Source: Selenomonadaceae bacterium (lineage in GTDB: Bacteria; Bacillota; Negativicutes; Selenomonadales; Selenomonadaceae). Taken from it: DNA of 64,000 nt. The translations under genes were made by a program, and so were the position numbers. Below are positions 1 to 16,151 of this stretch, one piece after another. Below the pieces are notes generated by a model. The model did no database searches. It was given only the letters and a program-made list of their open reading frames with translations, and had not been told where the DNA came from. Numbering within the stretch: position 1 is the stretch's first letter; the number at the start of each line of letters is the position of its first letter. The DNA is taken from positions 58,118 through 122,117 of the forward strand of contig JAGBMX010000137.1 in the NCBI GenBank assembly GCA_017634675.1, in the 5' to 3' direction.

Positions 1-2321
1 ATAAGGGAGGTAAAGACTCCGAGTAGGGACTGAACATCAAGAGGGTGCAAACCGATGGTAGGTTCATCAAATACAAAGACAGAGTCTTCTTGGCCGCGTC
101 CCATTTCGCTTGCCAATTTGAGCCGTTGCGCCTCGCCGCCAGACAAACCGGGAGTTTCCTCCCCAAGGGTCAGATAGCCTAACCCTAAGTTAGAAAGAAC
201 TGATAGGCGTTGATATACTGTTTTCATATCCTTACAAAATTCCAATGCCGTATCGACATCCATATCCATAAGTTCCGGTAAAGAATGAGCTTCTCCCGCT
301 TTATTGGTGTATTTCAACGTGTAGGCTTGTTTTCCGTAACGAGAACCTCGACAATCGGGGCAGGGGATATTAACATCCGGTAAAAACTGAACATCAAGAC
401 TGATTGCTCCCGTACCGTCGCAGGTATGGCAGCGGAGTTTACCCGTATTGTATGAAAAATCTCCCGCCTTGTAGCCCTTTGCCTTTGCTGCAGCAGAACG
501 AGCGTAGATTTTCCTGAGTTCATCGTGGACATTGGCGTAGGTGGCTACTGTGGAGCGGATATTGATTCCTATTGGAGCAGAGTCTATCAGTTTTACATGT
601 TTGATGTTTTCAGCCTGAATTGAAAGAACATGCTTTGGCAAAGGCATACCTGCAATATGAGCAGAGAGTCCCGGCACAAGACTTTCCAAAATAAGCGTAG
701 TCTTGCCGGAGCCGGAAACTCCGGTAATTACGGTGAATTTTCCCTTGGGAATGTCAATATTAAGGGGTTTTACCGTGTGAATGGCGGAAGTTTCCATATG
801 AATCCTGCCCTCGTCGAACATTTTGTCCCAAGGGGAGGACTTTCTCATGGATACATTGGCTGTTCCCGCAAGGAATGGAGCGATGAGTGATTTGCTGTCC
901 TTTTTTACATTTTCAGTTGACCCCTCGGTGATAATGTTACCGCCATTCGTTCCTGCCCCCATTCCCATCTCTATAATCCAATCAGATTCTTTCAAAATTT
1001 CCGTTTCGTGGTCAACGAGAATGATAGAATTTCCATCGGCAATAAGATCACGCATTACTCCTTTCAACCCCGCTATATTGGAAGGATGCAGACCTATAGA
1101 AGGTTCGTCCAACACGTATAGCACGCCGGTGGTACGGTTGCGCACGGCGCGCGCAAGTTGCATACGCTGACGTTCTCCCGTGGATAGAGTGGAGGACGCG
1201 CGGTCAAGGGTGAGATAGCCAAGTCCTAAGTCCATGAGTCGCTTGGCAACCGTATCGAATGACTCGCATATGCTTTTTGCCATAGGTCGCATATCTTTCG
1301 GCAAAGAAGCAGGGACTCCCGATACCCAATCTATGAGGGAAGTTAGGGTCATCTGCGTGGCTTCGGCAAGAGAGATGCCGCGAATAAGTGGCGCTCTTGC
1401 AGCTTCAGATAAACGTGAGCCGTTACACTTCGGACAGATTTCTTCTTTCAAAAATTTTTCCACACGTTTCATGCCTTTTTCATCTTTAACTTTGGCTAGG
1501 GCGTTTTCCACGGTATAGACGGCGTTGAAGTAAGTAAAATCCATTTCGCCGGCTGCGCCGCTGGTTTTGTTTTGGTAGATCATATGGTGCTTTACGGCAT
1601 CGCCGCGAAAAACAATATCCCGCTCCTTTTGGGTAAGTTCCCGAAAAGGTACATCCGTTCGCACACCCAAGTCCCGCGCTATGTCCTTCATCAGCGACCA
1701 CATGAGGGTTTGCCAAGGAAGTACCGCTCCTTCGTCTATGGTAAGCGATTCATCGGGGACAAGAGTGGATTCGTCAACTGTTCTCACCATTCCCGTACCG
1801 CCGCAATGTTCACAAGCGCCTTGGCTGTTAAAGGCCAATTCTTCTGCGCCGGGACCGTAGAAATGTTCGCCGCATTCCGGACAAACAAGCTCCTGCTCTG
1901 TCGCCACGGAGAGTGTCGGCGGCAGATAGTGACCGTTGGGGCAACGATGGCTGGCAAGTCTTGAGAACATAAGTCGCAAACTGTTCAAAAGTTCCGTTCC
2001 CGTTCCGAAAGTAGAGCGAATGCCCGGTACGCCGGGGCGTTGACGCAAAGCAAGAGCCGCCGGCACATATAGAACTTCGTCTACGTCGGCTTTTGCAGAA
2101 AATGTCATACGCCGTCTGGTATAAGTAGATAGAGCGTCCAAATAACGGCGAGAGCCTTCTGCATACAGTATGCCAAGGGCAAGGGAGGATTTGCCGGAGC
2201 CGGACACGCCGCAAATTCCGACAATTTTGCCTAATGGAATATCAACACTAATGTTTTTTAGATTATGCACCCTTGCGCCGCGAATTTTGATTAACTTGGG
2301 ATGTTCTGTATTTTGCTTCAT
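1..2321 (-). CDS. uvrA: UvrA-family ABC ATPase (excinuclease ABC subunit A paralogue); C-terminal end runs off the window
   Basis: Uninterrupted minus-strand frame from ATG at 2321 to position 1; it is missing from the ORF track because there is no stop in the window. My translation starts MKQNTEHPKLIKIRGARVHNLKNISVDIPLGKIVGICGVSGSGKSS (Walker A). It contains the ABC signatures LSTGERQRMQLA and LSGGEAQRLKLA plus Cys-rich zinc modules. RBS GGAGCAAG lies upstream. Confidence 0.85.
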   Translation of the reverse strand, partial: MKQNTEHPKLIKIRGARVHNLKNISVDIPLGKIVGICGVSGSGKSSLALGILYAEGSRRYLDALSTYTRRRMTFSAKADVDEVLYVPAALALRQRPGVPGIRSTFGTGTELLNSLRLMFSRLASHRCPNGHYLPPTLSVATEQELVCPECGEHFYGPGAEELAFNSQGACEHCGGTGMVRTVDESTLVPDESLTIDEGAVLPWQTLMWSLMKDIARDLGVRTDVPFRELTQKERDIVFRGDAVKHHMIYQNKTSGAAGEMDFTYFNAVYTVENALAKVKDEKGMKRVEKFLKEEICPKCNGSRLSEAARAPLIRGISLAEATQMTLTSLIDWVSGVPASLPKDMRPMAKSICESFDTVAKRLMDLGLGYLTLDRASSTLSTGERQRMQLARAVRNRTTGVLYVLDEPSIGLHPSNIAGLKGVMRDLIADGNSIILVDHETEILKESDWIIEMGMGAGTNGGNIITEGSTENVKKDSKSLIAPFLAGTANVSMRKSSPWDKMFDEGRIHMETSAIHTVKPLNIDIPKGKFTVITGVSGSGKTTLILESLVPGLSAHIAGMPLPKHVLSIQAENIKHVKLIDSAPIGINIRSTVATYANVHDELRKIYARSAAAKAKGYKAGDFSYNTGKLRCHTCDGTGAISLDVQFLPDVNIPCPDCRGSRYGKQAYTLKYTNKAGEAHSLPELMDMDVDTALEFCKDMKTVYQRLSVLSNLGLGYLTLGEETPGLSGGEAQRLKLASEMGRGQEDSVFVFDEPTIGLHPLDVQSLLGVFTSL

Positions 2322-2411
2322 AAAATCTTGCTCCTAACTTCTATATTGGCAGAAAAATAAATCTGTGATATGCTAAATTCATTAAAAATTTATGCAAGAA
2401 AGGTGATTGAA

Positions 2412-2867
2412 ATGCCAAAGAAAATCCTATTCGTTTGCCATGGGAATATCTGCCGATCCCCAATGGCGGAGTTTGTTATGAAGGATATGGTGCGTAAAGC
2501 CGGATTGGAAAAGGAAATTCTCGTGGATTCTAAAGCCTGCCGTACCGACGAAATCGGTTCCGACACTTATTACGGAACGAAAAATAAGCTCCGTGAAGAA
2601 GGCATACCGTTTACGCCAAGGAAAGCCAGTCAGATTACCGTTGCCGATTATGACAAATACGATTACATTATCGGCATGGATAGTGAAAATATGCGGGATT
2701 TGAGCCGTATAACCAAAGGCGATCCCAAAGGAAAGACACATCGTCTTTTGGAATTTGTCGGAGAGAGCCGCGATGTTGCCGATCCTTGGTACACCGATGA
2801 TTTTGACGCTACCTATCGTGATGTCGCTATTGGCTGTGAGGCGCTGCTGAAAACACTGACAAAGTAG
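2412..2867 (+). CDS. low-molecular-weight protein-tyrosine phosphatase
   Basis: MPKKILFVCHGNICRSPMAEF carries the CX5R(S) P-loop, and a DPWY motif lies near the C-terminus. The internal ATG at 2412 was chosen over the ORF-track start at 2370. Confidence 0.9.
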   Translation: MPKKILFVCHGNICRSPMAEFVMKDMVRKAGLEKEILVDSKACRTDEIGSDTYYGTKNKLREEGIPFTPRKASQITVADYDKYDYIIGMDSENMRDLSRITKGDPKGKTHRLLEFVGESRDVADPWYTDDFDATYRDVAIGCEALLKTLTK

Positions 2868-3031
2868 ACTAATTTATTCTGTATATCGTTACAAAATTCG
2901 TCTGACGATTCCTTAATTTTTGACATAAATTGAATACTATGATATTATAACTCTAAAATTACTACGAACGCAAGGAGGCGAGGAATATGGTAAACTATAG
3001 CGTTAAAACCCTCGTGAGCCTTGATTTTCCC

Positions 3032-3040
3032 GGGGGGGGG
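3032..3040 (+). repeat. poly-G tract, G9 (intergenic, at the end of an 18-codon mini-ORF)
   Basis: Counted directly from the sequence. Confidence 0.95.
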
Positions 3041-3188
3041 TAGATTTTAGTATAGATTTTGAAAATAAAAATTTCATACAAGAATATTTGCCGCGTGAAG
3101 CGGGCGCATTTTAAATGTGTTCGTTTTGCGTGGCTTTTTGTGTTTGAAAAAGGTAAAAATTTTATTGCTAAGAGGATGTTTGAAAACG

Positions 3189-4027
3189 ATGATAAAAACG
3201 TTAATTTATTGTGCCAGCGGTACAGGAGAGAGAGTTGCTTACTCGTTAGATGATGAGCGATATGAAGTTATCGGTTTGGTTGACAGTAATCCCGAGGTAT
3301 GGGGAAAGTCATTATATGGTATGGGGGGGTACTGCCGCCTTGTAAAATAAGGGAAATTGATTATGACTTAATCATAATTGCTAGATCTGTGTATGAAAAA
3401 GAAATTACGAATGATTTAGTAAATAAATATGGCGTAGATGAAAGTAAAATAGTAGCTTATCAACCTCAGACCCATGGAATTACGTGGGAAGATGAACGGA
3501 TTGTCATGTTGCGCAAGTGTATTTCGCTTATGAAGGAGCGAGATATTAGAGGAGATATGGCGGAAGTCGGGGTTTATACAGGCGAGTTCGCTAAACTTTT
3601 TAACCGTTATTATCCGGATAGAAAGCTTTATTTGTTTGATACTTTCGAAGGATTCGATTCAGAGCGTGACGCCGTCAATGCGGTGGACATCGATAACTTT
3701 AAAGATACATCTATAGATATAGTTTTAAATAAAATGAAGAACCCGAAAAATTGCATTGTAAGAAAGGGCTATTTTCCTGATACTGCGTACGGTATTGACG
3801 GAGATTTTGCTTTGGTAAGCCTTGATTGTGATTTGTATAATCCTATTTTGGCAGGATTGGAGTTTTTTTATCCCAAACTTGTACACGGCGGATATATTTT
3901 TGTACATGATTTCGGTTCTTATCATTATGAGGATGTAAAAAAAGCGGTGTTTGAGTTTTGCGGGCGTAACAACGCCATTATTTTTCCTTTGACGGATATA
4001 TGTTTGTCCATAGTGGTTTCAAAGTAA
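3189..4027 (+). CDS. TylF/macrocin-O-methyltransferase-like SAM methyltransferase, currently frameshifted at a G7 tract (phase-variable candidate, OFF)
   Basis: The N-terminal 47 codons (MIKTLIYCASGTGERVAYSLDDERYEVIGLVDSNPEVWGKSLYGMGG) are in frame 0. The remainder (VLPPCKIREIDYD...DMAEVGVYTGEFAKLF...LDCDLYNPILAGLEFFYPKLVHGGYIFVHDF) is in frame 2. The junction is G7 at 3323-3329; G8 would restore one ORF. Confidence 0.75.
3323..3329 (+). repeat. poly-G tract, G7 (frameshift point of methyltransferase 1)
   Basis: Counted directly from the sequence. Confidence 0.95.
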
Positions 4028-4040
4028 TCAGAGGAATTTT

Positions 4041-4960
4041 ATGAATACAGATTATTTGTTTGATGATGTAAAAAAGAACGAAGAGCATGGTTTTTACATG
4101 CTTGACGATAAGTACAGGAAAAAAATGAATGATTTTTATGAAAATGAGTACTATCAGCATGATCACGCTCTATATCAGCATAACGAATATGACGCCGTTG
4201 ACATGGCGCATAAAAACAATTTTTATGCGCAGAAGTTGTATATTATCAAAAAATATTCGGGGGGGGGTATACTTCGGAGTATCGAAGTTTCTTAGACATA
4301 GGTTGCGGCGAAGGTTTCGCTCTGCAATATTTTTATAATGCCGGGTGGAGCGTAACGGGGGTTGATTTTAGTTCTTACGGCATAACTGTGCATAATACGT
4401 CGATGAAAAAATTTCTGCTTCAAGGGGATTTTGAGAAAATTATAAACGAGCTTCATTCACAGGGAAAAACATTTGATTTTATAAATTCCGATAATGTGTT
4501 GGAACATTTGCCCGAGCCGGAAAAATTCTTCGAAAGCGTAAAAAAAGTTTCTAATGATAACACTATGCTTTGCGTTACGGTGCCTAACGATTTTTCCCGT
4601 ATCCAAAAATTGGCTTATGAAAACGGGTTTATCGACGGGGCTTTTTGGGTAGATAAGGAAACAAGCGAACATTTCAGTTATTTTTCCGTAGATTCTTTAT
4701 CTTCCTTGGGCTATGCCGCTGGGTATGAAAAATTAATCGCTACAGCAGATTGGCCTATAGATTTTTTCCTATTGCATAACCGTACAAATTACAGAAAGGA
4801 TAACGCCGTAGGGCATGATTGCCATATTGCTTGCGCATTGTTGGAAAACAGCATTTATGACGAATCTATGGATATTGCCGTAAACCTTTTTAAGACTCTG
4901 GCGGATGCCGGGGTAGGAAGAGAAATCAGCGTGTATTTTAAAATGGCGAAAGGTCGATGA
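4041..4960 (+). CDS. class I SAM-dependent methyltransferase, currently frameshifted at a G9 tract (phase-variable candidate, OFF)
   Basis: Frame 0 reads ...IIKKYSGGG and then stops at 4293-4295. Frame 2 continues YTSEYRSFLDIGCGEGFALQYFYNAGWSVTGVDFS (SAM-binding motif I) to the stop at 4960. The junction is G9 at 4259-4267; G10 or G7 would fuse the frames. Confidence 0.75.
4259..4267 (+). repeat. poly-G tract, G9 (frameshift point of methyltransferase 2)
   Basis: Counted directly from the sequence. Confidence 0.95.
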
Positions 4961-4963
4961 GAG

Positions 4964-6607
4964 ATGAAAGTGGCGTTGCTTTCAAATATTAATGCGGATC
5001 CCATCAACAGATATTTAAACGGTTGTAAAGATATTGAAATTTACGAACCTCAAGGTTATGGCAACGAACTTGGCGTATTGCTTAACAGAGATTCGTCTTT
5101 GTATGATTTCGCTCCGGATATGGTATTTATAATTACGGATTTAATGGAGTTAATTGGTCGCGATTTGGAAATAACTGCCGCCGGAAAAAAGATTGACGAA
5201 TGGTTTGCTCTTTTTGAAAGTTCGCTGAGCGAAGGGACGGTTTTTTACGTTTCAGATGCATTTGTACATGGATTTGAAGTAGATCTTGTTTGGGAAAGAA
5301 GCGTAATCACGGCTGTCGAAAACAAATGGGACGAAAATCTGTACGCCTTGGCAAATAAATATTCGAATGTTCGGGTTTTCGGATTAAATCGCATAATACG
5401 GCTATATGGTGAGAGCAACGCTTTTTCCCGTAAAATGTGGTATATGGGGAAAATACTTTATTCCGCCGTATTGCAAAAAGCTCTGGCGGAAGAAATAATT
5501 CACAGAACAGAGATAGAGATAAGGCAGCCTAAAAAGGCGTTGTTGCTTGATTTAGACAATACCTTGTGGAGAGGACTTGCCGGTGAAAACGATATTTCGC
5601 CTGTTATTTTATCTGAGGATGGGGTAGGCTTAGCGTATAAGAATTTTCAGAGAGGGATAAAGCTCTTAAAATCTCAAGGCGTTATATTGGGGATTGTGTC
5701 GAAAAACAATGAGGATGATGCGATATCTATAATAGAAAATCATCCTCATATGGTTCTGAGACTTGAGGATTTTGCAACGTATAGGATTAATTGGGAAAAC
5801 AAGGCTGAAAATATAGTATCAATATCCAAAGAGTTGAATATCGGATTGGATTCCATTGTTTTCATAGACGATAACAAAGCCGAGCAAGCGTTGATACGAG
5901 AAGCTTTGAGCCAAGTGTACGTTCCGGATTTTCCGGTTAATCCCGAGGAACTTTCGTCGTTTATAGCGGAAATTTACCGTCAATGTTTTGAAAAGCCGAT
6001 AGTTACTGATGAAGACAAAAATAAAACAAAACAGTATCGTGAAAACCAGACACGCAAGCAATTAATGAAAGCGTCTGTAGATTTTGCCGGATATTTGGAT
6101 AATCTAGAAATGCGTATGATTAGGGTAAATCCTGAAAAGCATAAAGAACGTTTGTTGCAGCTCGTAAACAAAACTAATCAATTTAACCTGACAACAAGAA
6201 GGCTAACGGAGCAGGAACTTGCAAATATTTTACGCGATAATAATTCGGAGGTCTTTCTTTATAGGGTACTGGATAGGTTCGGCGATAACGGCATTGTGGC
6301 TGCGGCAATGGTCGAGTATAGAAATGAGGCTGTAATAACAGAATTTACAATGAGTTGTCGGGTTATGGGAAGAAAAATAGAAGACGCAGTGATAGACGAT
6401 ATCGAAAAATATTCGGCAAGTCGCGGTTACGGCGAGCTTGTAGGCATATATATTCCCACGGAAAAGAATAAGCCGGTAAAGGATTTGTATTCGTCTTTGG
6501 GATATAAAAAAAGAGAGGTTTGCGACGACGGAACTTTTGAATTTGTTATTTCGCTAAAGGACGATTTGGTTAGAGATATTCACGTTGAAAGAACGACGGA
6601 GGTTTGA
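4964..6607 (+). CDS. FkbH-like HAD-IIIC phosphatase/acyl-carrier loader
   Basis: ALLLDLDNTLWRG (HAD DxDxT motif in the FkbH context), GIVSKNNEDDA, and a C-terminal GNAT-like region. An ACP gene follows immediately. Confidence 0.8.
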   Translation: MKVALLSNINADPINRYLNGCKDIEIYEPQGYGNELGVLLNRDSSLYDFAPDMVFIITDLMELIGRDLEITAAGKKIDEWFALFESSLSEGTVFYVSDAFVHGFEVDLVWERSVITAVENKWDENLYALANKYSNVRVFGLNRIIRLYGESNAFSRKMWYMGKILYSAVLQKALAEEIIHRTEIEIRQPKKALLLDLDNTLWRGLAGENDISPVILSEDGVGLAYKNFQRGIKLLKSQGVILGIVSKNNEDDAISIIENHPHMVLRLEDFATYRINWENKAENIVSISKELNIGLDSIVFIDDNKAEQALIREALSQVYVPDFPVNPEELSSFIAEIYRQCFEKPIVTDEDKNKTKQYRENQTRKQLMKASVDFAGYLDNLEMRMIRVNPEKHKERLLQLVNKTNQFNLTTRRLTEQELANILRDNNSEVFLYRVLDRFGDNGIVAAAMVEYRNEAVITEFTMSCRVMGRKIEDAVIDDIEKYSASRGYGELVGIYIPTEKNKPVKDLYSSLGYKKREVCDDGTFEFVISLKDDLVRDIHVERTTEV

Positions 6608-6608
6608 A

Positions 6609-6827
6609 ATGAGAGAGAAAATGATAGGTTTAATCGAAAAAACTTTAAATTTAGCCCATGGCGTTATCAATGAAGATACTAAAATTGAAGAAGTACCGGG
6701 GTGGGATTCTTTGGCCCATGTTTTGATTATCGGGGCCATTGAGTCGGATCTAGGCATTTCGATTCCATTAGACGAAGCTGTTGACATTGCTTCGGTCGGA
6801 GAATTATTTGAAAAAGCGGGGGTATAA
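6609..6827 (+). CDS. acyl carrier protein
   Basis: 72 aa with a GWDSLAHV phosphopantetheine-attachment-type motif. GGAGG RBS lies 6 nt upstream of ATG 6609, and the gene starts 2 nt after the FkbH stop. Confidence 0.8.
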   Translation: MREKMIGLIEKTLNLAHGVINEDTKIEEVPGWDSLAHVLIIGAIESDLGISIPLDEAVDIASVGELFEKAGV

Positions 6828-6829
6828 TA

Positions 6830-7804
6830 ATGGCTGCAACGCTTCGACTGATTACAAAAGATGATTTGGAAAGGATTATGAACTGGCGAATGTCCGAAAG
6901 GGTCACAAAATATATGAACACCAATCCTAAGCTGACTCTTGAAGGGCAGGAAAAATGGTTTGACTCTCTTGAAGGAAACGATAAAGTCAGGAACTGGATA
7001 ATTGAAGTAAACGGTGCGCCCGCCGGTTTGATCAATCTTGCGGATATTGATTGGGAAAAAGGAACTACGTCATGGGGGTATTATATAGGGGAGAATGATA
7101 AGCGTTCTTTAAAGTTGGCTGTATCCCTTGAAATGAGTTTATATGATTATTGTTTCGACGTTTTGGGATTTAACGAAGTACACAACGAAGTTTTTAAATT
7201 GAACGAAGGAGTATGGAAATTACACATAGCTTGCGGTTGCAAAGTGGTAAAAGAAGTTGTCGGCGAGGTGGAAAAAGAAGGAGTCGCTTACGACATAGTG
7301 CATCTTTCCATGGAACGCAACGAGTGGTTTAAAATTAGAGAAAAAAAGAAATATGAGAAGATAAATTTTGATGTGTTTGAAGGTATAATGGGGGGGGTAA
7401 CGGTACACCACATAGGCGTAGCAGTAGCGGACATAAAAAAATCAGTGGAAAGTTTTAAAAATTTCGGATGGGTTTGCGACGGAGAAATAATAAAAGATTC
7501 GTCTCGCAGCGTAAATCTTGCATTTTTAAAGAGGCGTAATTCAAACGAGATTTTGGAACTCGTATCTCCGATTAACGAACAGAGTCCGGTATTTGATATG
7601 CTTAATGCCAACAAAAATGTGGCGTTGCCCTATCATATTTGTTATGAAGTAAAGGATATAGATAAAACTGTGGATACTTTGAAATCCCGTAACTATATTC
7701 TTGTGGAAAAACCTAAACCGGCAATCGCTTTTCAACACAGACAAGTTGCTTTCTTGTTAAATCGCGATTCCGGTTTGTTGGAACTTTTGGAGGAAAGAAA
7801 ATAA
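6830..7804 (+). CDS. GNAT N-acetyltransferase fused to a VOC/glyoxalase (methylmalonyl-CoA-epimerase-like) domain
   Basis: The N-terminal half has RimJ/L-like GNAT features. The C-terminal half has VHHIGVAVADIKKSVESFKNFGW and ICYEV, typical of VOC/epimerase folds. An in-frame G8 tract (7390-7397) sits at the domain junction. Confidence 0.65.
   Translation: MAATLRLITKDDLERIMNWRMSERVTKYMNTNPKLTLEGQEKWFDSLEGNDKVRNWIIEVNGAPAGLINLADIDWEKGTTSWGYYIGENDKRSLKLAVSLEMSLYDYCFDVLGFNEVHNEVFKLNEGVWKLHIACGCKVVKEVVGEVEKEGVAYDIVHLSMERNEWFKIREKKKYEKINFDVFEGIMGGVTVHHIGVAVADIKKSVESFKNFGWVCDGEIIKDSSRSVNLAFLKRRNSNEILELVSPINEQSPVFDMLNANKNVALPYHICYEVKDIDKTVDTLKSRNYILVEKPKPAIAFQHRQVAFLLNRDSGLLELLEERK
7390..7397 (+). 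repeat. poly-G tract, G8 (in frame, at the GNAT/VOC junction)
   Basis: Counted directly from the sequence. Confidence 0.95.
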
Positions 7805-7810
7805 AAAGAA

Positions 7811-7853
7811 GGCTGTGAAGAAACTGAAAAACAGTTTCCTCACAGCCTTTTTA
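7811..7853. terminator. bidirectional hairpin terminator between convergent genes
   Basis: GGCTGTGAAGAAACTG / CAGTTTCCTCACAGCC forms a 16-bp stem with 1 mismatch, with an A-run before it and a T-run after it. Confidence 0.8.
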
Positions 7854-8303
7854 TGCGTTTTGTAACGTCTTTAAGCTTACAAATTCGTTTGCTTTTTGAA
7901 ATTTACTGCTTCCGTTTTGACTGCGGTAATTTAGAGTGTCCACATAGGAGCGGATACTGTCTGCTCCTTTTTTCATGCCGCCGGAGCCGTCGGAAAAAAT
8001 CTGCTTCGTGACACTTGAAAACGTCCCGTTGCCCATTTTCAGCACATCACTTGTAGTGCGACTTTTTGAGGATAACTTTTCGGTAAAATGCGTTCCGTCG
8101 CGATATATCCGAGCATTACCCCTGGCAAACCTGCTGTTGCCGATTTTAGTTTCGTTGCCGAAATTGGAAACATCCGTAAACGAATTATCCTGTTTGGAGA
8201 TGGTTGCGGTCATGGATTGACCGTTTTGTACAATCTCTCGATTTGTGCGTTGAAACAGGCTGCTGCCCCAATTTACCGCACCGAGCATCCCGGTAGAAGA
8301 CAT
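7851..8303 (-). CDS. hypothetical S/T/N/G-rich 150-aa protein
   Basis: Intact ORF, last gene of a minus-strand gene string, followed by a strong hairpin terminator. I recognise no motif. Confidence 0.45.
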   Translation of the reverse strand: MSSTGMLGAVNWGSSLFQRTNREIVQNGQSMTATISKQDNSFTDVSNFGNETKIGNSRFARGNARIYRDGTHFTEKLSSKSRTTSDVLKMGNGTFSSVTKQIFSDGSGGMKKGADSIRSYVDTLNYRSQNGSSKFQKANEFVSLKTLQNA

Positions 8304-8379
8304 AAAGCCTCACACCTTCCATGGAAAACCTTCTACACACTCTCATAATAGCATAATTTCAAAAAAAAATCCAGATTTT

Positions 8380-9039
8380 TTAATCAATAGTCAAAATTTT
8401 ATTTTTCAGCACATATACTAAAGCCTGTGTGCGGTCGGAAACATTTAATTTCCTGAAGATATTTGTGAGGTGATTTTTTACGGTTTTTTCGCTGACGCAG
8501 AGACTGTCGGCTATTTCTTGATTGCTTAAACCTTGGGTTATACAGCTTAACACGTCCATCTCCCGAAGGGTAAGACCGTTTGGACGGTGCCTTTTGTATA
8601 AGAGGCGAGCTTTTTCTATAATGTGTTCTTCCTTGCCGAAGAGTCTTTTGGCTATTTTAGGGTAAACAAACGCATTGCCTTTGTTTACTGCGTGAATTGC
8701 GCGAACAAGAGCCTCCGGCTCTACGTCTTTTAAAATATACCCAAGCGCGCCGTGTTTTAAGATTTCGAGAATATAGTTATCTCCATCGTGAATCGTAAGA
8801 GCTATAATTTTTGTCGGGATTTTTTTGCTCCCCAATTCTTTAGCTACCTCAAGCCCGTTTTTTTCAGGCATATTGATGTCCAAAAGCAGGATATCCGGGG
8901 AGAGTTCAAGGGTTTTTTTGATTGTTTCTTCACCATCTCCGGCTTCACCCACCACTTTTAAATCGTCTTCGAAGGAGAGCACGCGACGGATTCCCTCGCG
9001 AATAAGTGCGTGATCGTCCGCTATTAATATTGAAATCAT
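8380..9039 (-). CDS. NarL/FixJ-family response regulator (REC + LuxR HTH)
   Basis: MISILIADDHALIREG...LLLDINMP (receiver domain), then LTLREMDVLSCITQGLSNQEIADSLCVSEKTVKNHLTNIFRKL (LuxR HTH). ATG 9039 has a GGAG RBS; the ORF track extends to 9066. Confidence 0.9.
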   Translation of the reverse strand: MISILIADDHALIREGIRRVLSFEDDLKVVGEAGDGEETIKKTLELSPDILLLDINMPEKNGLEVAKELGSKKIPTKIIALTIHDGDNYILEILKHGALGYILKDVEPEALVRAIHAVNKGNAFVYPKIAKRLFGKEEHIIEKARLLYKRHRPNGLTLREMDVLSCITQGLSNQEIADSLCVSEKTVKNHLTNIFRKLNVSDRTQALVYVLKNKILTID

Positions 9040-10758: not shown

Positions 10759-10898
10759 ACAGCATCCCCTTTAGGGTAGAAATTACTTTATAAAGCTATG
10801 TTCTGATTGTACAAGATGAACCCAAAATTGTCAAGCTAAGCTAGAGAATTCACGCTAATTAGGTTAAAATTAATTTTATTTTGGATGGAGGAATTTTT

Positions 10899-11507
10899 AT
10901 GAAAAAGGGAACTACTTATGGTTACATTCGAGTGTCAACCGTTATGCAACATGATGACCGTCAAAGAGTCGCTATGAGGGAATTTGGCGTTGAATCTAAA
11001 TTTATATTTGCTGATAAACAAAGCGGCAAAGATTTTAATCGTCCGGCATATAAAAAACTAATGAAAAAACTCTCCGCCGGAGATGTTTTGGTGATTCAAA
11101 GCTTAGATAGGCTTGGTCGGGATTATAACGATATTTTGGAGCAATGGCGTATTATTACCAAGAAAAAACGAGCTTACATCGTAGTCTTAAATATGCCTAT
11201 TTTGGATACGAGAGTAAAAATAGCCGGTGATCTCACAGGTACTCTTATCTCTGATCTTGTACTCCAACTTCTTTCTTATGTGGCGCAGATGGAACGGGAG
11301 ATGAATCTTAGGCGCACGCTGGAGGGAATAGCGGCGGCGAAGGCGAGAGGTGTAAAGTTTGGACGAAGACCCATGGAACGCCCGAAAATTTATGAGACGA
11401 TTCGCCTGCGTTGGGAAGCCGGCGAATTATCGGCGCGTGAAGCTGCAAAACACATAGGAATAGCGCCTTCTACTTTTAGACGATGGGTGAAAACAGGCGA
11501 GCGATAA
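10899..11507 (+). CDS. serine recombinase (resolvase/invertase family)
   Basis: YGYIRVSTVMQHDDRQ (catalytic Ser), LVIQSLDRLGRDY, and a C-terminal HTH (AAKHIGIAPSTFRRW). GGAGG RBS precedes ATG 10899. Confidence 0.9.
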   Translation: MKKGTTYGYIRVSTVMQHDDRQRVAMREFGVESKFIFADKQSGKDFNRPAYKKLMKKLSAGDVLVIQSLDRLGRDYNDILEQWRIITKKKRAYIVVLNMPILDTRVKIAGDLTGTLISDLVLQLLSYVAQMEREMNLRRTLEGIAAAKARGVKFGRRPMERPKIYETIRLRWEAGELSAREAAKHIGIAPSTFRRWVKTGER

Positions 11508-11519
11508 ACCATGGTTTAT
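11504..11519. repeat. perfect 16-bp palindrome ATAAACCATGGTTTAT overlapping the recombinase stop codon
   Basis: Read directly. A second copy of GCGATAAACCATGG lies at 11595-11608. Confidence 0.8.
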
Positions 11520-11652
11520 GACCCGGCAATAAATAAAAAAAAATGGCAGGAAATTTGCGTTTTTTAGCGAAAATAATTTGTATAAAGTAGGTGGGCGATA
11601 AACCATGGGTTGCCGCCCACCCTGAATCGTAGAGTCTAAAGGAGCGGTTAAC

Positions 11653-12606
11653 ATGGCAAAAGAATTGCGTATGGAAAGAAAAGTTGTATTTACAGAGCGT
11701 CCTCCATTTCCTGAAAATATGCTTGTAGAACTTACTAACAAATGTAACCATCAATGTATTTTCTGTCACTATCGTCTTATGAGCCGTAAAAAAGCGGATT
11801 GTAATCGAGAATTTACCTTTGATATCATAAAACAAGCCTATGACAACGGTACGCGCGAGATTGGGTTTTATATGATAGGCGAGCCTTTTTTGAAGCGGGA
11901 TTTGGAGGAATACATTGCTTACGCCCATAATCTTGGTTTTACATACATTTATCTAACCACCAACGGCGCTTTGGCTACCTTAGAGCGCACCGTTAAATGT
12001 ATTGAGGCGGGATTAAACAGTATCAAATTCTCCATAAACGCCGCCACTACTGAGCATTACATACAAATACACGGGCACGACGATTATGAAACTGTAAAAA
12101 CAAATGTTCGCAATCTTAGCGAATATGTAAGAAAAAATAATATAGATCTTTCAATGTTTATCACTTTCGTAAAAACTAATATTACGTTAGATGATTTTGA
12201 TTTGTTGCTGGCGGATTTTTCATCCTTTGTTGACAAAATATACGAATGCGACTGCAACTCTCAAGGAACGCCTATAATCGAATTGATCAATAACGGTATT
12301 GTAAATCCTTTAATATACTTAAAAGAAAACCAAGAGCTATGCCAGATGGTTTTTAATCGCTTACATATAACTAGCGAAGGTTATTTAAACGCCTGTTGCG
12401 CAGATGCTGAAGGGCTTTTGAGCGCCGTTGATTTGCATGAAGTTTCACTAAAGGAAGCTTGGCATTCGGATATTATGGTTAATTTGCGTCGGCAATTTCT
12501 TAACAATACACTTAGTAAAGATGTTCTTTGCTATAACTGCTTACATAAAGAGCAACATAAGGTAAAGCCCTTAAACGAAGCGCTTTGGTCATCGAATGGA
12601 CGCTAA
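11653..12606 (+). CDS. radical SAM enzyme with C-terminal SPASM/twitch-like Cys cluster
   Basis: CNHQCIFC (CX3CX2C) lies near the N-terminus. The C-terminal Cys-rich region contains CDCNSQG, GYLNACCADAEG and CYNCLH. Confidence 0.85.
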   Translation: MAKELRMERKVVFTERPPFPENMLVELTNKCNHQCIFCHYRLMSRKKADCNREFTFDIIKQAYDNGTREIGFYMIGEPFLKRDLEEYIAYAHNLGFTYIYLTTNGALATLERTVKCIEAGLNSIKFSINAATTEHYIQIHGHDDYETVKTNVRNLSEYVRKNNIDLSMFITFVKTNITLDDFDLLLADFSSFVDKIYECDCNSQGTPIIELINNGIVNPLIYLKENQELCQMVFNRLHITSEGYLNACCADAEGLLSAVDLHEVSLKEAWHSDIMVNLRRQFLNNTLSKDVLCYNCLHKEQHKVKPLNEALWSSNGR

Positions 12607-12615
12607 TTATAAAAA

Positions 12616-14634
12616 ATGAGTCGTAATGTAGGAGGTTTACTGAAATTGAAAGAGTATAATATTGAAATACCGAAGTTTACAGCGCTTGAGAAAAAGCTTC
12701 AACAAGAGTCTGACTTTTTTAACTATATGAAGCTCTTGACAGAGGTTTTAACCCAGTATGTACTTATAATTACCGTTAGCGACACGCCTTCAGGTCCTAT
12801 GTTTACATCTGCTCATGCAAACGCTATGATGAGCGCACTTGGACTTGAAATGAATATGATGAATGCTTTTCGTATGCCTTATGTAGCAGTTATAGATCAT
12901 GGTAAGCTTGCGTATGAAAGCACGTCAAAAGGACGTGAGGAGCCTGTAATTGTGAATGGCAATTTAGGAGAACATACTCTTAGTATATATAGCGGAGGCC
13001 TTGACTGTAATCTTAATTTGGGGTTTGGATGTAATGCGCTAATCACCATAGATGGTACACATTATTTTGGAGACTTGGGATATAATTTTTTTCTATATAA
13101 CGTTAAAGATGACTATATTGCTGATATGTGCGTCTACGGAGCTTGGTATAATAGTGATGAACGTACGTTACACAGACCAACTTCCATTATAAAAGAGTTT
13201 ATCGCAAATTTAAATACCGGGGGGGGTATGCTTTGCTTTATGCATACACCTGTATTTACACCTTTATCAATGCGTTCAGAGCAGGAGAATCTTATTATTA
13301 ATTCAAAGTTTGGTTATAACATGATGTCTGATAAAAATGTTTTACAAAATATATGGAATAATAAAATTTTTCACTTCGTAAATGACTTTGACACCGAAGA
13401 AGATTTGCTCGAAGCTATAACGCCTCCAGACGCTTATGAGGATATTGATGGAATAATGAAGTTCAAAGACCATAAATCAAATGCGGTAAATACAAAAAAT
13501 GGAATACGGGTAACGACGGATCAACCGCAAAATCCCCAAAGAGCCATATATATTTTTGGTCCTTGCACAACTTTTGGAATAGGCGCAAAAGATAGTTATA
13601 CGATAGCGTCGTGTTTGCAGAGAAAATTAAACGAGTATTTGCCGGAGGAAAAATTCATAGTATATAATTATGGATTTTATATAAATGGCATAGGTGACGC
13701 TCAAGAACGACTCATAGCGATAATGAAATCATTGCCGATACAAAAAAACGATATTATTTTATTTGCGCAAAACGCTCCTTTTTACGGTATCCCATTTTGT
13801 GACTTAACCGAAAAATCAAAACGACCACATAATTACGGCGATATTTTTTTGGATAGCGGACATTTTACAGCTAACGGTAATCGTATGATAGCCGACGGTA
13901 TTTTTGATTTTTTAAAAAAATATGATTTTTTCAAAGATACGAAAATGAACATTACCAATGCTGGAGATTTAGGCGAAATAACTATTTTTGAAAATCACGA
14001 GAACGAACTTTTGACGATGTATAAATGTAAACTTAAAAATTTTTTCAAAACAAATATCTCTCCAAAAGTCGGTGCAATTGTTATGAACGCAAACCCTTTT
14101 ACATACGGACATCGCGCCTTGGTGGACGAAGCTTTGAAAAAATGCGATTACTTGATAGTTTTTGTCGTTGAAGAGGATAAATCCGATATACCTTTTAAAG
14201 ATAGGATTATGCTTGTAAGAGAAAATCTAAAAACGGAGTCCCGAGTTTTTATAATGCCTAGCGGAGAATTTATAATTTCCGGCAAGACTTTTAGCGAATA
14301 TTTCAGAAAAGAGAGTTTACAAGAGCAAAAAATAGATACTTCAAAAGATGTAATTCTTTTCGCAAAAGAAATTGCGCCATGCCTTAACATAAGCATTCGT
14401 TTTGCCGGCGAAGAGCCTACTGACAAAATTACGAGGCAATATAATGAGGATATGGCAAAAATTTTGCCTATGTATGGCATTGAGTTTATGGAGATAAAGC
14501 GAAAGATTACCGATGAAGGGGAAGTAATAAGCGCATCTACGGTAAGGAAACTTGTTAGAGCGTGCGAGTATGAGAAGTTAGAAACACTTGTTCCTCCCGT
14601 TACATTTGAGTATTTAAAGAGAAAATATTTGTAG
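12616..14634 (+). CDS. large multidomain protein: unknown N-terminal region, SGNH-like middle region, C-terminal CitC-type (citrate-lyase-ligase-like) adenylyltransferase domain
   Basis: The C-terminus has GAIVMNANPFTYGHRALVDEALKKCDYLIVFVVEEDKSDIPFKDR (NPFTxGH nucleotidyltransferase motif as in CitC). The middle has IYIFGPCTTFG ... DSGHFTANGNRMIA (SGNH block I/V-like, with Cys in place of Ser). An in-frame G8 sits at 13219-13226. An alternative TTG start at 12646 has an AGGAGG RBS. Confidence 0.7.
   Translation: MSRNVGGLLKLKEYNIEIPKFTALEKKLQQESDFFNYMKLLTEVLTQYVLIITVSDTPSGPMFTSAHANAMMSALGLEMNMMNAFRMPYVAVIDHGKLAYESTSKGREEPVIVNGNLGEHTLSIYSGGLDCNLNLGFGCNALITIDGTHYFGDLGYNFFLYNVKDDYIADMCVYGAWYNSDERTLHRPTSIIKEFIANLNTGGGMLCFMHTPVFTPLSMRSEQENLIINSKFGYNMMSDKNVLQNIWNNKIFHFVNDFDTEEDLLEAITPPDAYEDIDGIMKFKDHKSNAVNTKNGIRVTTDQPQNPQRAIYIFGPCTTFGIGAKDSYTIASCLQRKLNEYLPEEKFIVYNYGFYINGIGDAQERLIAIMKSLPIQKNDIILFAQNAPFYGIPFCDLTEKSKRPHNYGDIFLDSGHFTANGNRMIADGIFDFLKKYDFFKDTKMNITNAGDLGEITIFENHENELLTMYKCKLKNFFKTNISPKVGAIVMNANPFTYGHRALVDEALKKCDYLIVFVVEEDKSDIPFKDRIMLVRENLKTESRVFIMPSGEFIISGKTFSEYFRKESLQEQKIDTSKDVILFAKEIAPCLNISIRFAGEEPTDKITRQYNEDMAKILPMYGIEFMEIKRKITDEGEVISASTVRKLVRACEYEKLETLVPPVTFEYLKRKYL
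13219..13226 (+). repeat. poly-G tract, G8 (in frame, in the 672-aa gene)
   Basis: Counted directly from the sequence. Confidence 0.95.
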
Positions 14635-14664: not shown

Positions 14665-14891
14665 CCTGTCTGTAGACTTATTGTCGTTGTTTCCAATTTA
14701 AGAGGATACTCCCCCCGCCCCCCCTCTAGGAGGGGGGCTTTTATGTGGTTCATTCTTAGATAAGTGCCACAAAAGCAACAGTCAGAGAGCCTCCCTCTCA
14801 GAGGAAGGTGCCCGAAGAGCGGAGGGGTCGACCATGAAGAGCGCTATTTTTATTTTTGTACTACATGTGAATAGTAACAATACTTATTGTA
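14665..14891 (+). repeat. MITE-like element, family H, copy A (approximate ends)
   Basis: Shares the core CAGAGAGCCTCCC...GGTGCCCGAAG.GC.GAGGGGT.GACCATGAAGAGC and GTGAATAGTAAC with copies at 17949-18212 and, inverted, 44730-44965. Confidence 0.65.
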
Positions 14892-15002: not shown

Positions 15003-15080
15003 CTTCATTTTTCGACAGTCTGAACAATACTTATTGTAATTTCATTGTTTTGTCGATAATCTGCATTTTTTCAAAAATTA

Positions 15081-15108
15081 TGTAACACTTTTCATTTTCA
15101 GGCGTATA
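15081..15108 (+). promoter_or_regulatory. ECF-type promoter of P1: TGTAAC-N16-CGTATA
   Basis: TGTAAC at 15081-15086, a 16-nt spacer, and CGTATAAAG starting at 15103. It is part of a roughly 100-bp module repeated at P2 and P9. Confidence 0.6.
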
Positions 15109-15167
15109 AAGATACAGAAAGAAAAAAATAAAAGCCTTTAGGCAAACAATTTGAAAGGATGATTGTA

Positions 15168-15500
15168 ATGAAACTTAATAAGGAAAACAAACTAAGCAAT
15201 GATGAACTTGAACAGGTAGCCGGAGGTCATTGTGGGAATAGTTATAAAGATATGCAGCGAGCGTACGACAGGCAAATGCCGGGCTTTGAAAACATGGATC
15301 CCTCAAATATAGCTACGATGGTATATTGCCTCAAAAACTGGGATAAAGTGGTGGGAGAGCTAAAAAATATGTTCGCCCAATACGGAATCGAAATGACTTA
15401 CAAAAGCGACCCCTTAGAAGACAATCTTTATATGTACCAAGGCAGGCGGATTACCGACGGTCAAGCGTGGCAAATCCTCGACAGCCAAAGAAACCCCTGA
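15168..15500 (+). CDS. GG-leader cargo protein P1 (subfamily A)
   Basis: MKLNKENKLSNDELEQVAGG leader, then a 90-aa hydrophilic domain (HCGNSYKDM...YMYQGRRITDGQAWQILDSQRNP). RBS GAAAGGA and an ECF-type promoter lie upstream. Confidence 0.8.
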   Translation: MKLNKENKLSNDELEQVAGGHCGNSYKDMQRAYDRQMPGFENMDPSNIATMVYCLKNWDKVVGELKNMFAQYGIEMTYKSDPLEDNLYMYQGRRITDGQAWQILDSQRNP

Positions 15501-15542
15501 TTCCCATGAGTATCACGCTCATTAAAATTTTTTCAAAAATTA

Positions 15543-15570
15543 TGTAACACTTTTCATTTTCAATCGTATA
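15543..15570 (+). promoter_or_regulatory. ECF-type promoter of P2: TGTAAC-N16-CGTATA
   Basis: Same motif and spacing as for P1. Confidence 0.6.
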
Positions 15571-15629
15571 AAGATACAGAAAGAAAAAAATAAAAGCCTT
15601 TAGGCAAACAATTTGAAAGGATGATTGTA

Positions 15630-15974: not shown

Positions 15975-16035
15975 TATAAAATGATAGGTTTACCCCCGAA
16001 ACATACGAAAAGAGATTTTTTCAAAAATTATGTAA

Positions 16036-16124
16036 GGCAACCTCTAAAAATTGCCTAATTTCCTTGATGTCTCCCCGCCCCTTCGGGGCGGGGAGACATC
16101 AAAAATAAGTTTTTAGAAGTGCCC
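16036..16124 (+). repeat. repeat element, family K, copy 1 (inserted in the P3 promoter module)
   Basis: Aligns along its length with 21923-22010. It contains the hairpin GATGTCTCCCCGCCCC-TTCG-GGGCGGGGAGACATC. Confidence 0.7.
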
Positions 16125-16151
16125 GTAACAATTTCCGTTTTCAGTCGTATA
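16124..16151 (+). promoter_or_regulatory. ECF-type promoter of P3-P4: CGTAAC-N16-CGTATA
   Basis: Same spacing. The -35 element abuts an inserted repeat element (16036-16124). Confidence 0.55.

What the first reader, a model, noticed from the sequence alone, without database searches (positions are those of the whole stretch)
3189..4960. Two adjacent methyltransferase genes are both in the OFF frame at their poly-G tracts
Seen directly for methyltransferase 1: with G7 at 3323-3329 the TylF-like gene terminates after ...GMGGYCRLVK. One extra G gives ...YGMGGVLPPCKIREIDYD..., continuous with the 242-aa downstream ORF.

Seen directly for methyltransferase 2: with G9 at 4259-4267 the gene stops after ...YSGGGILRSIEVS. 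G10 or G7 gives ...YSGGG-YTSEYRSFLDIGCGEGF..., continuous with the SAM-binding domain.

Both need the same +1/-2 change. Two independent frameshifts located exactly at homopolymers argue for switching rather than random decay.
Basis: seen in the sequence. Interest (0 to 1): 0.7.

Follow-up and report, generated by a model that had tools for sequence, protein, structure and literature searches.

The report
Poly-G on/off switches in sugar-methylation genes
Two neighbouring methyltransferase genes of a rumen Selenomonadaceae bacterium are each interrupted only by the length of a run of G's, and related strains and species show different run lengths, so they are most likely reversible on/off switches for decorating a surface sugar, a mechanism well known from Campylobacter but not reported in this group.

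Summary
G7 at 3323-3329 and G9 at 4259-4267 each break an otherwise intact gene. One extra G restores a 279-aa TylF-type O-methyltransferase and a 306-aa class I SAM methyltransferase, and both align end to end with homologues.

Switching is favoured over decay:
- Near-identical contigs of the same strain differ by indels only at G tracts (MT1 G7/G6, upstream tract G9/G10).
- A 99%-identical strain carries G14 in MT2.
- Other species have a G tract at the same codon of both genes, in mixed ON and OFF states.
- GGG-GGG is otherwise absent from this genome's long ORFs.
- A relative's truly decayed MT2 shows what real decay looks like.

The genes head an operon with FkbH, ACP and a PseH-like GNAT fused to a VOC domain. 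In relatives this cassette sits among pseudaminic-acid and flagellar genes. It probably builds an O-methylated glyceroyl group on a nonulosonic acid.

Two further tracts belong to the operon, one in a leader ORF ahead of a strong terminator and one at the GNAT/VOC boundary.

Caveats: there are no read-level data, and no clean ON allele was seen in this species; MT1 is OFF in all ten contigs.

This is a known kind of switch in a new taxon.

The parts
2920..2948 (+). Sigma-70-like promoter of the operon (TTGACA, 17-nt spacer, TATTAT, with TG before the second hexamer)
   Evidence: It matches 11 of 12 consensus positions and is the best site in 2300-8400. This is a consensus match only.
2987..3043 (+). 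Short leader ORF (18 aa, MVNYSVKTLVSLDFPGGG*) behind an AGGAGG Shine-Dalgarno. It ends just after a third tract, G9 at 3032-3040. With G10 it becomes a 42-aa ORF stopping at TAA 3112-3114.
   Evidence: Translation is. The tract is G9 in four strain-A contigs and G10 in L002 and L088. The 42-aa form was called as a gene in L002 and L088. It has no homologue outside the species.
3090..3144 (+). Intrinsic-terminator-like hairpin (21-bp stem, -30.7 kcal/mol, then UUUUUGUGUU) between the promoter and the MT1 start. The stop codon of the G10 leader ORF lies in its apical loop.
   Evidence: Strain B keeps the hairpin (-27.9 kcal/mol) despite two substitutions in its 5' arm. No Rfam family matches the region.
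3189..4027 (+). MT1, a TylF-family O-methyltransferase with a C2185-like N-terminal domain, frameshifted at its tract
   Evidence: Pfam TylF scores 63.8 bits against a cut-off of 23. Homologues of 278-282 aa cover 100% of the repaired protein at 75-77% identity. The AlphaFold model has pLDDT 88.8, and its best fold matches are the sugar O-methyltransferases SpnH, NovP, MycF and CalS11.
3323..3329 (+). MT1 tract G7 (OFF; ON at G8 or G5). It encodes a Gly-rich, indel-tolerant loop at residues 45-47 of the N-domain.
   Evidence: The tract is G6 in L001, which is otherwise identical over 11.5 kb.
4041..4960 (+). MT2, a class I SAM-dependent methyltransferase (Methyltransf_23, UbiG-like), frameshifted at its tract
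   Evidence: Pfam Methyltransf_23 scores 68.1 bits. Homologues of 300-310 aa cover 97-98% of the repaired protein.
4259..4267 (+). MT2 tract G9 (OFF; ON at G10 or G7), in the variable linker just before SAM-binding motif I (LDIGCGEG)
   Evidence: The tract is G14 in L087, L148 and L149, and G18 plus CT (in frame) in L088.
4964..6607 (+). FkbH-domain / HAD-IIIC protein (547 aa), intact
   Evidence: TIGR01686 FkbH scores 269 bits against a cut-off of 146.65.
6609..6827 (+). Acyl carrier protein (72 aa)
   Evidence: PP-binding and acyl_carrier hits, all below the curated cut-offs. The position between FkbH and GNAT is conserved in relatives.
6830..7804 (+). PseH-like GNAT N-acyltransferase fused to a VOC/glyoxalase (methylmalonyl-CoA-epimerase-like) domain. 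It carries a fourth tract, G8 at 7390-7397, in frame at the domain boundary.
   Evidence: G7 would place a stop immediately after the tract, giving a 189-aa GNAT-only protein. That protein would end where the natural GNAT-only gene of L086 ends. The tract is G8 in all six contigs that cover it.
7809..7849 (.). Hairpin with 18 pairs, reported on the minus strand with a T-run on that strand. It lies directly after the operon and probably marks its end.

Best explanation
MT1 and MT2 are contingency (phase-variable) genes. Slipped-strand mispairing at their coding-strand poly-G tracts changes tract length during replication. That moves each gene independently into or out of frame.

In this assembly the majority alleles (G7 and G9) are both OFF.

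The two genes lead an operon with an FkbH-domain protein, an ACP, and a PseH-like GNAT fused to a VOC domain. By inference, FkbH loads a glyceryl unit on the ACP. The GNAT transfers it to an amino group of a pseudaminic- or legionaminic-type sugar precursor. The two methyltransferases O-methylate the glyceroyl hydroxyls.

Switching the two genes would then give unmethylated, mono-methylated or di-O-methylated glyceroyl sugars on flagellin or another surface glycoconjugate, that is four glycoforms from one clone.

Shown here: frames, gene intactness, tract polymorphism, tract conservation, synteny.

Inferred: reversibility and rate, the substrate, and the target structure.
For: 1. Single lesion per gene. 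One extra G restores full-length proteins that align end to end with homologues, and every invariant alignment column, including Asp 151, 213 and 215, carries the shared residue here.

2. Same-strain contigs L001-L004 differ from the window by 0-2 SNPs in up to 11.5 kb. Their only indels are at tracts: MT1 G6 in L001, upstream G10 in L002. L152 carries the same tract lengths as the window.

3. A 99%-identical strain has MT2 G14 in three contigs. L088 has an in-frame 309-aa MT2.

4. The tract sits at the same codon in other species.
- MT1: G8 OFF in L085, against a 13-nt G8CG4 that is ON in L089. The alignment of L089 3110-3821 shows only two substitutions besides the tract, and the last 600 nt of MT1 are identical. 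G8 ON in L146. G8 OFF in L155. G7 in frame in L005.
- MT2: G8 ON in L090, L144 and L145. G7 OFF in L146.

5. Tracts are over-represented and clustered, and GGG-GGG is otherwise avoided.

6. Both tracts encode variable, length-tolerant Gly loops or linkers.

7. An internal control for decay: the tract-less MT2 of L085 carries a 1-nt deletion, two nonsense codons, a gap of about 115 nt in the alignment and an insertion of about 19 nt that repeats adjacent sequence. The window's genes carry nothing of the kind.

8. Function. The FkbH domain scores above cut-off, the GNAT scores just below the PseH cut-off, and MT1 has the fold of sugar O-methyltransferases. In L085 the cassette sits in the order FliD-FliS-FlgN-PseB-PseC-PseG-PseF-MT1-MT2-FkbH-ACP-GNAT/VOC-NeuB. 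It lies next to PseF in L146 and next to NeuB in L086.

9. Precedent. C. jejuni 11168 carries 2,3-di-O-methylglyceroyl pseudaminic acid, ten G/C tracts and an FkbH-domain gene (cj1302) in its flagellin glycosylation locus (PMC3068675, PMC7099621, bioRxiv 10.64898/2026.04.20.719630).
Against: - No read-level data exist, so all lengths are assembly consensus.
- MT1 is OFF in all 10 conspecific contigs (G7 nine times, G6 once), and G7 is short for a fast switch.
- MT2 is OFF in 10 of 11 contigs. The single ON contig (L088) has lost the C before the tract and gained CT after it, which simple slippage cannot produce and which may be an assembly error.
- These genes are dispensable in the family. 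MT2 is decayed in L085 and absent from L086 and L147, and the MT1 N-terminus is missing in L144 and L145.
- There are too few substitutions between strains to test for purifying selection.
- In this genome the cassette is not next to pse or flagellar genes, so the target glycan is inferred from relatives only.
Confidence: 0.7

Rival explanations
1. These are young pseudogenes. Both genes were inactivated by the commonest kind of indel, slippage at a homopolymer. They are now drifting among OFF lengths without any adaptive, reversible switching in this species.
For: MT1 is OFF in 10 of 10 conspecific contigs and MT2 in 10 of 11. The family loses these genes readily. MT2 shows 5 non-synonymous against 2 synonymous differences between strains, though the intact FkbH gene shows 13 against 10.
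Against: Neither gene has a second lesion, whereas the decayed MT2 of L085 has at least five. Tracts at the same codons persist across species that differ by 25-30% at the nucleotide level, and ON alleles occur there. The rare GGG codons are kept.
Confidence: 0.15
2. This is a homopolymer sequencing or assembly error. The real genome has in-frame tracts, and both genes are simply ON.
For: Homopolymers are error-prone. Three strain-B contigs begin inside the upstream tract, and the L088 junction looks artefactual, so assemblers clearly struggle at these sites.
Against: The same G7 and G9 recur in independent assemblies from different samples and pipelines: ENA scaffolds, ENA k141-named contigs, Logan contigs and NCBI MAG records. 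From general knowledge, consensus calls at G7-G9 from Illumina data are normally reliable.
Confidence: 0.05
3. The genes are expressed despite the OFF DNA. Full-length or functional protein is made by RNA-polymerase slippage or ribosomal frameshifting at the G run, or from internal starts. Examples are the 242-aa ORF from ATG 3299, which keeps the whole TylF domain, and the MT2 C-terminal ORF. On this view the tracts tune the level of expression rather than switch it.
For: The 242-aa ORF contains the complete catalytic domain. Stand-alone TylF-domain homologues without the N-domain exist, for example L017-L024, which match only residues 97/104-279. From general knowledge, long homopolymers can cause transcriptional slippage.
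Against: ATG 3299 has GAGG only 1 nt upstream, which is poor Shine-Dalgarno spacing. The N-terminal regions are conserved in orthologues. No frameshift-stimulating element is evident. This could not be tested with these tools.
Confidence: 0.1

Closest known systems
[quoted passage not shown]
   Same: Both have intragenic G tracts of about 8-10 in the 5' part of genes that modify pseudaminic or legionaminic acid. Both have several tracts clustered in one glycosylation locus, plus one intergenic tract. In both, ON/OFF works by frameshift. The C. jejuni locus also holds an FkbH-domain gene (cj1302), and the strain makes 2,3-di-O-methylglyceroyl-Pse (PMC3068675, PMC7099621, bioRxiv 10.64898/2026.04.20.719630).
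   Different: The phylum differs (rumen Selenomonadaceae, Negativicutes). The tract-bearing genes here are a TylF-type and a Methyltransf_23 methyltransferase, not Cj1295, maf or 617-family genes. In this genome the cassette is detached from pse and flagellar genes. Switching rates and glycan chemistry are untested here.
Phase-variable capsule methyltransferases of C. jejuni (cj1420, cj1426)
   Same: These are SAM-dependent methyltransferase genes switched by poly-G tracts, and they alter methylation of a surface glycan (bioRxiv 10.64898/2025.12.14.694251).
   Different: Their target is capsular polysaccharide. No homology to them was tested here.
FkbH/ACP glyceryl-ACP pathway (methoxymalonyl-ACP route of FK520-type polyketides)
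   Same: Both combine an FkbH-domain loader, a dedicated ACP and O-methyltransferase(s) in one operon. The family's chemistry is taken from general knowledge.
   Different: No FkbK/FkbI-type dehydrogenases and no PKS are present. Instead there is a PseH-like GNAT, which suggests transfer of the acyl group to an amino sugar.
TylF-family sugar O-methyltransferases (SpnH, NovP, MycF, CalS11)
   Same: MT1's catalytic domain has their fold and a Pfam TylF hit above cut-off. Asp residues at alignment-invariant positions are conserved.
   Different: Identity is only 19-23%. MT1 has an extra Rossmann-like N-terminal domain (C2185-like_N) that carries the tract. Its substrate is unknown.

Membership tests
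Simple-sequence-repeat phase-variable (contingency) gene | Homopolymeric tract of about 7 or more inside the ORF, usually in the 5' part, longer than genome background | tested here: met
   G7 lies at codons 45-47 of 279 and G9 at codons 73-76 of 306. Runs of 8 or more number 4 against 0.70 expected, and all are clustered.
Simple-sequence-repeat phase-variable (contingency) gene | A change of tract length alone toggles between a full-length and a truncated product, and the gene is otherwise intact | tested here: met
   Adding 1 G or removing 2 restores proteins of 279/278 aa and 306/305 aa that cover 97-100% of homologues.
Simple-sequence-repeat phase-variable (contingency) gene | Tract-length polymorphism among clonal or near-identical genomes | tested here: met
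   MT1 is G7 or G6 and the upstream tract G9 or G10, on backgrounds with 0-2 SNPs per 11.5 kb. MT2 is G9, G14 or G18 between 99%-identical strains. These are consensus-level calls only.
Simple-sequence-repeat phase-variable (contingency) gene | Both ON and OFF alleles occur in the same species | tested here: inconclusive
   In this species MT1 is never ON, and MT2 is ON only in L088, which has a suspicious junction. In a sister species MT1 is OFF (G8, L085) and ON (13 nt, L089) on near-identical sequence.
Simple-sequence-repeat phase-variable (contingency) gene | High-frequency, reversible switching measured in a clonal lineage | not testable with these tools
   This needs reads or cultures.
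TylF-family O-methyltransferase (MT1) | Pfam PF05711 above the gathering score, the fold of metal-dependent sugar O-methyltransferases, and conserved Asp residues | tested here: met
   TylF scores 63.8 bits against 23. Foldseek against SpnH, NovP and MycF gives E values of 1e-9 to 1e-8. D151, D213 and D215 are invariant. Their role in metal binding was not verified.
Class I SAM-dependent methyltransferase (MT2) | Methyltransf_23/11/12 domains above cut-off, with motif I present | tested here: met
   PF13489 scores 68.1 bits against 27, and the LDIGCGEG motif follows the tract.
FkbH/ACP glyceryl-loading system | FkbH domain above the curated cut-off with an adjacent dedicated ACP | tested here: met
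   TIGR01686 scores 269 bits against 146.65. A 72-aa ACP gene starts immediately downstream, though its hits are below curated cut-offs.
FkbH/ACP glyceryl-loading system | Formation of glyceryl-S-ACP from 1,3-bisphosphoglycerate | not testable with these tools
   This is a biochemical assay.
Pseudaminic-acid / flagellin glycosylation island | Physical linkage to pse/neuB genes and flagellar genes | tested here: not met
   In this window the cassette lies between an LMW-PTP gene and a LuxR-type regulator, and the rest of the window is housekeeping. Linkage is present in relatives L085, L086 and L146. The assignment to nonulosonic-acid modification therefore rests on orthologue context.
Pseudaminic-acid / flagellin glycosylation island | PseH-type N-acyltransferase | tested here: inconclusive
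   TIGR03585 PseH scores 90.4 bits against a cut-off of 93.1.

The most novel reading that the evidence does not exclude
The operon may be a multi-tier, four-tract combinatorial switch.

1. A poly-G tract in a species-specific leader ORF decides whether ribosomes stop 47 nt before a strong intrinsic terminator (G9) or read into its 5' arm and stop in its loop (G10). This would gate transcription of the whole operon, a phase-variable attenuator.
2. Two tracts switch the two O-methyltransferases independently.
3. A tract placed exactly at a domain boundary toggles the acyltransferase between a GNAT-VOC fusion (G8) and a GNAT-only enzyme (G7).

All of this would be in a rumen commensal of the Negativicutes, where SSR phase variation has not been described.
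Probability: 0.2. Interest if true: 0.7.

Novelty: new member of a known kind. Interest (0 to 1): 0.45.

Why it matters
Poly-G contingency loci are textbook for host-adapted pathogens such as Campylobacter, Helicobacter, Neisseria and Haemophilus.

Finding the same logic in uncultured rumen Selenomonadaceae would show that stochastic surface-glycan variation also operates in gut commensals. The evidence is conserved tracts at the same codons of two methyltransferase genes in several species.

The likely selective agents are flagellotropic phages, protozoal grazing or host antibodies.

The finding has practical value for annotation. Pipelines currently call these genes as fragments or 'hypothetical proteins'. 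Metagenomic reads could be mined for tract-length distributions.

It also yields a concrete biosynthetic hypothesis for the methylated glyceroyl substituent of pseudaminic acid: FkbH, ACP and GNAT plus two O-methyltransferases. The papers consulted name only Cj1295 as required for that substituent in C. jejuni.

Tried and rejected
The source species was identified instead from NCBI names of exact-match proteins.
- The metagenome-contig scan with the FkbH protein found no conspecific contig. It found only relatives at 63% identity or less, which were useful for tract conservation.
- A synonymous versus non-synonymous comparison between strains had too few substitutions to say anything.
- I considered the upstream tract as a promoter-spacer switch. 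TTGATT (3021-3026) to TAGATT (3041-3046) leaves only 14 nt at G9, and any such transcript would still meet the terminator, so I rejected it.
- I considered the leader region as a known riboswitch or leader. Rfam gave no hit.
- I considered the 42-aa leader product as a conserved small protein or a gene remnant. It has no homologues outside the species and no tblastn hit in related loci.
- More distant MT1 homologues (39-56% identity) are not linked to FkbH, ACP or GNAT. I did not use them for the functional inference.
- My first scripts had off-by-one starts and one timed out. They were redone. For the leader ORF, I re-derived the G9 and G10 translations from the frame-2 translation and checked them against the 42-aa gene calls in L002 and L088 and against P0255.
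Full report
**Observation**

The sequence is as described.

- MT1 starts at ATG 3189. With G7 at 3323-3329 it reads ...SLYGMGGYCRLVK*.
- G8 gives a 279-aa protein ending at 4027. G5 gives the same protein minus one Gly.
- MT2 starts at ATG 4041. With G9 at 4259-4267 it reads ...KKYSGGGILRSIEVS*.
- G10 gives a 306-aa protein ending at 4960.
- Both genes need +1 or -2.

**Are these real genes with one lesion each?**

Repaired MT1 carries a TylF domain (63.8 bits, cut-off 23) behind a C2185-like N-terminal domain. Repaired MT2 is a Methyltransf_23 class I enzyme.

MT2 homologues are 300-310 aa and cover 97-98%.

All invariant alignment columns carry the shared residue in the window's MT1, including D151, D213 and D215.

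An AlphaFold model of MT1 is confident (pLDDT 88.8). It places the tract-encoded residues in a loop of the N-terminal Rossmann-like domain. Its catalytic domain matches the sugar O-methyltransferases SpnH, NovP, MycF and CalS11.

In both proteins the tract encodes a Gly-rich stretch that varies in sequence and length among homologues:
- MT1: YGM-GGV, YGL-GRV, YGGGGV, YGFGEGV.
- MT2: KKYSGGGY, KKWGGY, NKWRSASE.

Changes of three bases should therefore be tolerated.

**Source**

Exact-match proteins are named by NCBI as 'MAG... [Selenomonadaceae bacterium]' (MBO6179700-03), on a 159,541-bp contig. The metagenome contigs that carry the locus have record names beginning XIEF21-1; from memory of Xie et al. 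2021, not from a tool result, I take these to be ruminant gut samples.

The annotation pipeline split both genes into fragments or called them hypothetical.

**Switching or decay?**

Four other lines of evidence bear on the question.

*(a) Same-strain contigs.* L001-L004 match the window with 0-2 mismatches in up to 11.5 kb. Their only indels are tract lengths. L152 and L154 were compared at the tracts only.

| Tract | Lengths seen |
|---|---|
| MT1 | G6 in L001, G7 in the others |
| Upstream tract | G10 in L002, G9 in the others |
| MT2 | G9 in all seven |
| GNAT tract | G8 in all six |

These counts also draw.

*(b) A strain about 99% identical.*
- MT2 is G14 in three contigs (L087, L148, L149). 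This is the other OFF frame, and the pipeline called a 278-aa chimera from the third frame.
- All three contigs begin inside the upstream tract.
- L088 has 'tatt-G18-ct-tatact', which is in frame and gives a 309-aa MT2. Its junction cannot arise by simple slippage and may be an assembly artefact.

*(c) Other species.* These share 70-75% nucleotide identity with the window in MT1. They carry G tracts at the homologous codons, in mixed states.

| Locus | MT1 | MT2 |
|---|---|---|
| L085 | G8, OFF | no tract, decayed |
| L089 | 13 nt (G8CG4), ON | no tract, intact |
| L146 | G8, ON | G7, OFF |
| L155 | G8, OFF | contig too short to cover it |
| L090 | G8 at contig edge, state unknown | G8, ON |
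| L144, L145 | N-terminus missing | G8, ON |
| L005 | G7, in frame | none detected |
| L086, L147 | no tract (non-repetitive codons), intact | absent |

The alignment of L089 3110-3821 against L085 shows only two substitutions besides the tract, and the last 600 nt of MT1 are identical. The table draws.

More distant family members also carry N-domain tracts: Helicobacter pullorum G13 and a Selenomonas ruminantium MAG G7.

*(d) Background.*
- G/C runs of 8 or more: 4 observed, 0.70 expected.
- All six runs of 7 or more lie within 2.9-15 kb.
- GGG is the rarest Gly codon, and GGG-GGG occurs only twice in 25 long ORFs, the number of in-frame tracts those ORFs contain.

*A useful control.* The tract-less MT2 of L085 is truly decayed. 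Relative to L089 it has a 1-nt deletion, two nonsense codons, a gap of about 115 nt in the alignment and an insertion of about 19 nt that repeats adjacent sequence. Neither gene in the window shows anything like this.

*Weaknesses.*
- There are no reads.
- MT1 is never ON in ten conspecific contigs, and its tract is short.
- The only ON MT2 allele in this species is questionable.
- Substitutions between strains are too few to test selection.

I put reversible tract-mediated switching at about 0.7. Young pseudogenes are the main rival.

**Operon and likely function**

The genes are tightly packed, in this order:

| Coordinates | Gene |
|---|---|
| 3189-4027 | MT1 |
| 4041-4960 | MT2 |
| 4964-6607 | FkbH-domain protein (269 bits, cut-off 147) |
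| 6609-6827 | ACP |
| 6830-7804 | PseH-like GNAT (90.4 bits, cut-off 93.1) fused to a VOC domain resembling methylmalonyl-CoA epimerase |

A hairpin terminator follows at 7809-7849.

Orthologous cassettes sit inside nonulosonic-acid and flagellar clusters:
- L085: FliD-FliS-FlgN-PseB-PseC-PseG-PseF-MT1-MT2(pseudogene)-FkbH-ACP-GNAT/VOC-NeuB.
- L146: next to PseF.
- L086: next to NeuB.

Close MT1 orthologues are linked to FkbH, ACP and GNAT wherever the contig reaches that far.

From the established chemistry of the FkbH family (a glyceryl unit loaded on an ACP), I infer an N-glyceroyl substituent on a Pse- or Leg-type sugar, with its two hydroxyls methylated by the two methyltransferases. That would be the 2,3-di-O-methylglyceroyl group known on C. 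jejuni 11168 flagellin. The C. jejuni glycosylation locus also has an FkbH-domain gene and ten G/C tracts (PMC3068675, PMC7099621, bioRxiv 10.64898/2026.04.20.719630).

In this window the cassette is not linked to pse or flagellar genes. The target is therefore inferred.

*The leader.*
- A near-consensus promoter lies at 2920-2948 (11 of 12 positions).
- It is followed by AGGAGG and a leader ORF starting at 2987. The ORF contains a third tract, G9 at 3032-3040.
- With G9 the ORF stops at 3041-3043.
- With G10, as in L002 and L088, and as implied by the 42-aa protein P0255 from a 743-bp contig of strain B, the ORF runs 42 aa. Its stop (3112-3114) falls in the apical loop of a 21-bp hairpin of -30.7 kcal/mol followed by a U run (3090-3144).
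- That hairpin lies between the promoter and MT1.
- No better promoter lies downstream of the hairpin.
- The peptide has no homologues, and Rfam has no match.

The layout suggests a tract-dependent attenuator, but this is speculative. From general knowledge, transcription and translation are poorly coupled in some Firmicutes, which would weaken the idea.

*The GNAT tract.* A fourth tract, G8 at 7390-7397, is in frame and sits exactly at the GNAT/VOC boundary. G7 would put a stop directly after it. The resulting 189-aa GNAT would end where the natural GNAT-only gene of L086 ends.

**Comparison and novelty**

Mechanistically this is the well-known SSR contingency-locus design of Campylobacter glycosylation genes.

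The held literature has no paper combining Selenomonas with homopolymeric tracts. A broader search on Negativicutes and phase variation listed nothing relevant among its top hits.

I class the finding as a new member of a known kind, of moderate interest. The attenuator and domain-toggle readings are the more novel but unproven parts.

Noticed in passing
window 13219-13226 (in ORF 12616-14634): A fifth tract, G8, lies in frame at codon 202 of a 672-aa protein whose C-terminus is a citrate-lyase-ligase / cytidylyltransferase-like domain. A change of 1 G either way would truncate the protein at 228-235 aa. The gene follows a radical SAM/SPASM gene at 11653-12606.
   Followed up: partly
window 14711-14737: The sequence is C6-G-C7, then tctagga, then G6, followed by CTTTTAT. 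This is a C/G homopolymer hairpin about 80 nt after the stop of the 672-aa ORF. It looks like a terminator but is built from slippery runs.
   Followed up: no
window 15058-17900 and 20378-20754: Seven paralogous small genes (about 110-127 aa) share an upstream repeat and an N-terminal 'NKLSNDELEQVAGG' double-glycine leader motif. They lie downstream of the radical SAM/SPASM gene. The arrangement looks like a multi-precursor bacteriocin or RiPP locus.
   Followed up: no
window 10881-11621: A serine recombinase (resolvase/invertase-like, 208 aa) ends in a perfect 16-nt palindrome, ATAAACCATGGTTTAT (11503-11518). A second imperfect copy lies at 11584-11611. All four same-strain metagenome contigs L001-L004 end at window position 11519. 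This may be a recombination site or the edge of a variable or mobile segment.
   Followed up: partly
L085 6780-7600 versus L089 3830-4760: In a sister species whose MT2 has no G tract, one contig carries an MT2 with at least five independent lesions and another carries an intact copy. Where no switch exists, the gene is lost irreversibly.
   Followed up: yes
L087, L148, L149 (position 1): Three independent contigs of the 99%-identical strain all begin inside the upstream G tract ('GGGGTAGATTTT...'). Assemblies break there, which fits either length heterogeneity or poor read quality at that tract.
   Followed up: no
L025 8067 (Helicobacter pullorum), L042, L050, L015: Distant MT1-family genes and their neighbours carry long G/C tracts (G11-G14, C11) in Helicobacter species, a Helicobacteraceae MAG and a Treponema MAG. 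This methyltransferase family recurrently sits in tract-rich loci across phyla.
   Followed up: partly
window 34559-37518: Two adjacent paralogous PMT_2 (dolichyl-phosphate-mannose-type) glycosyltransferase genes lie among housekeeping genes. They are unrelated to the tracts.
   Followed up: no
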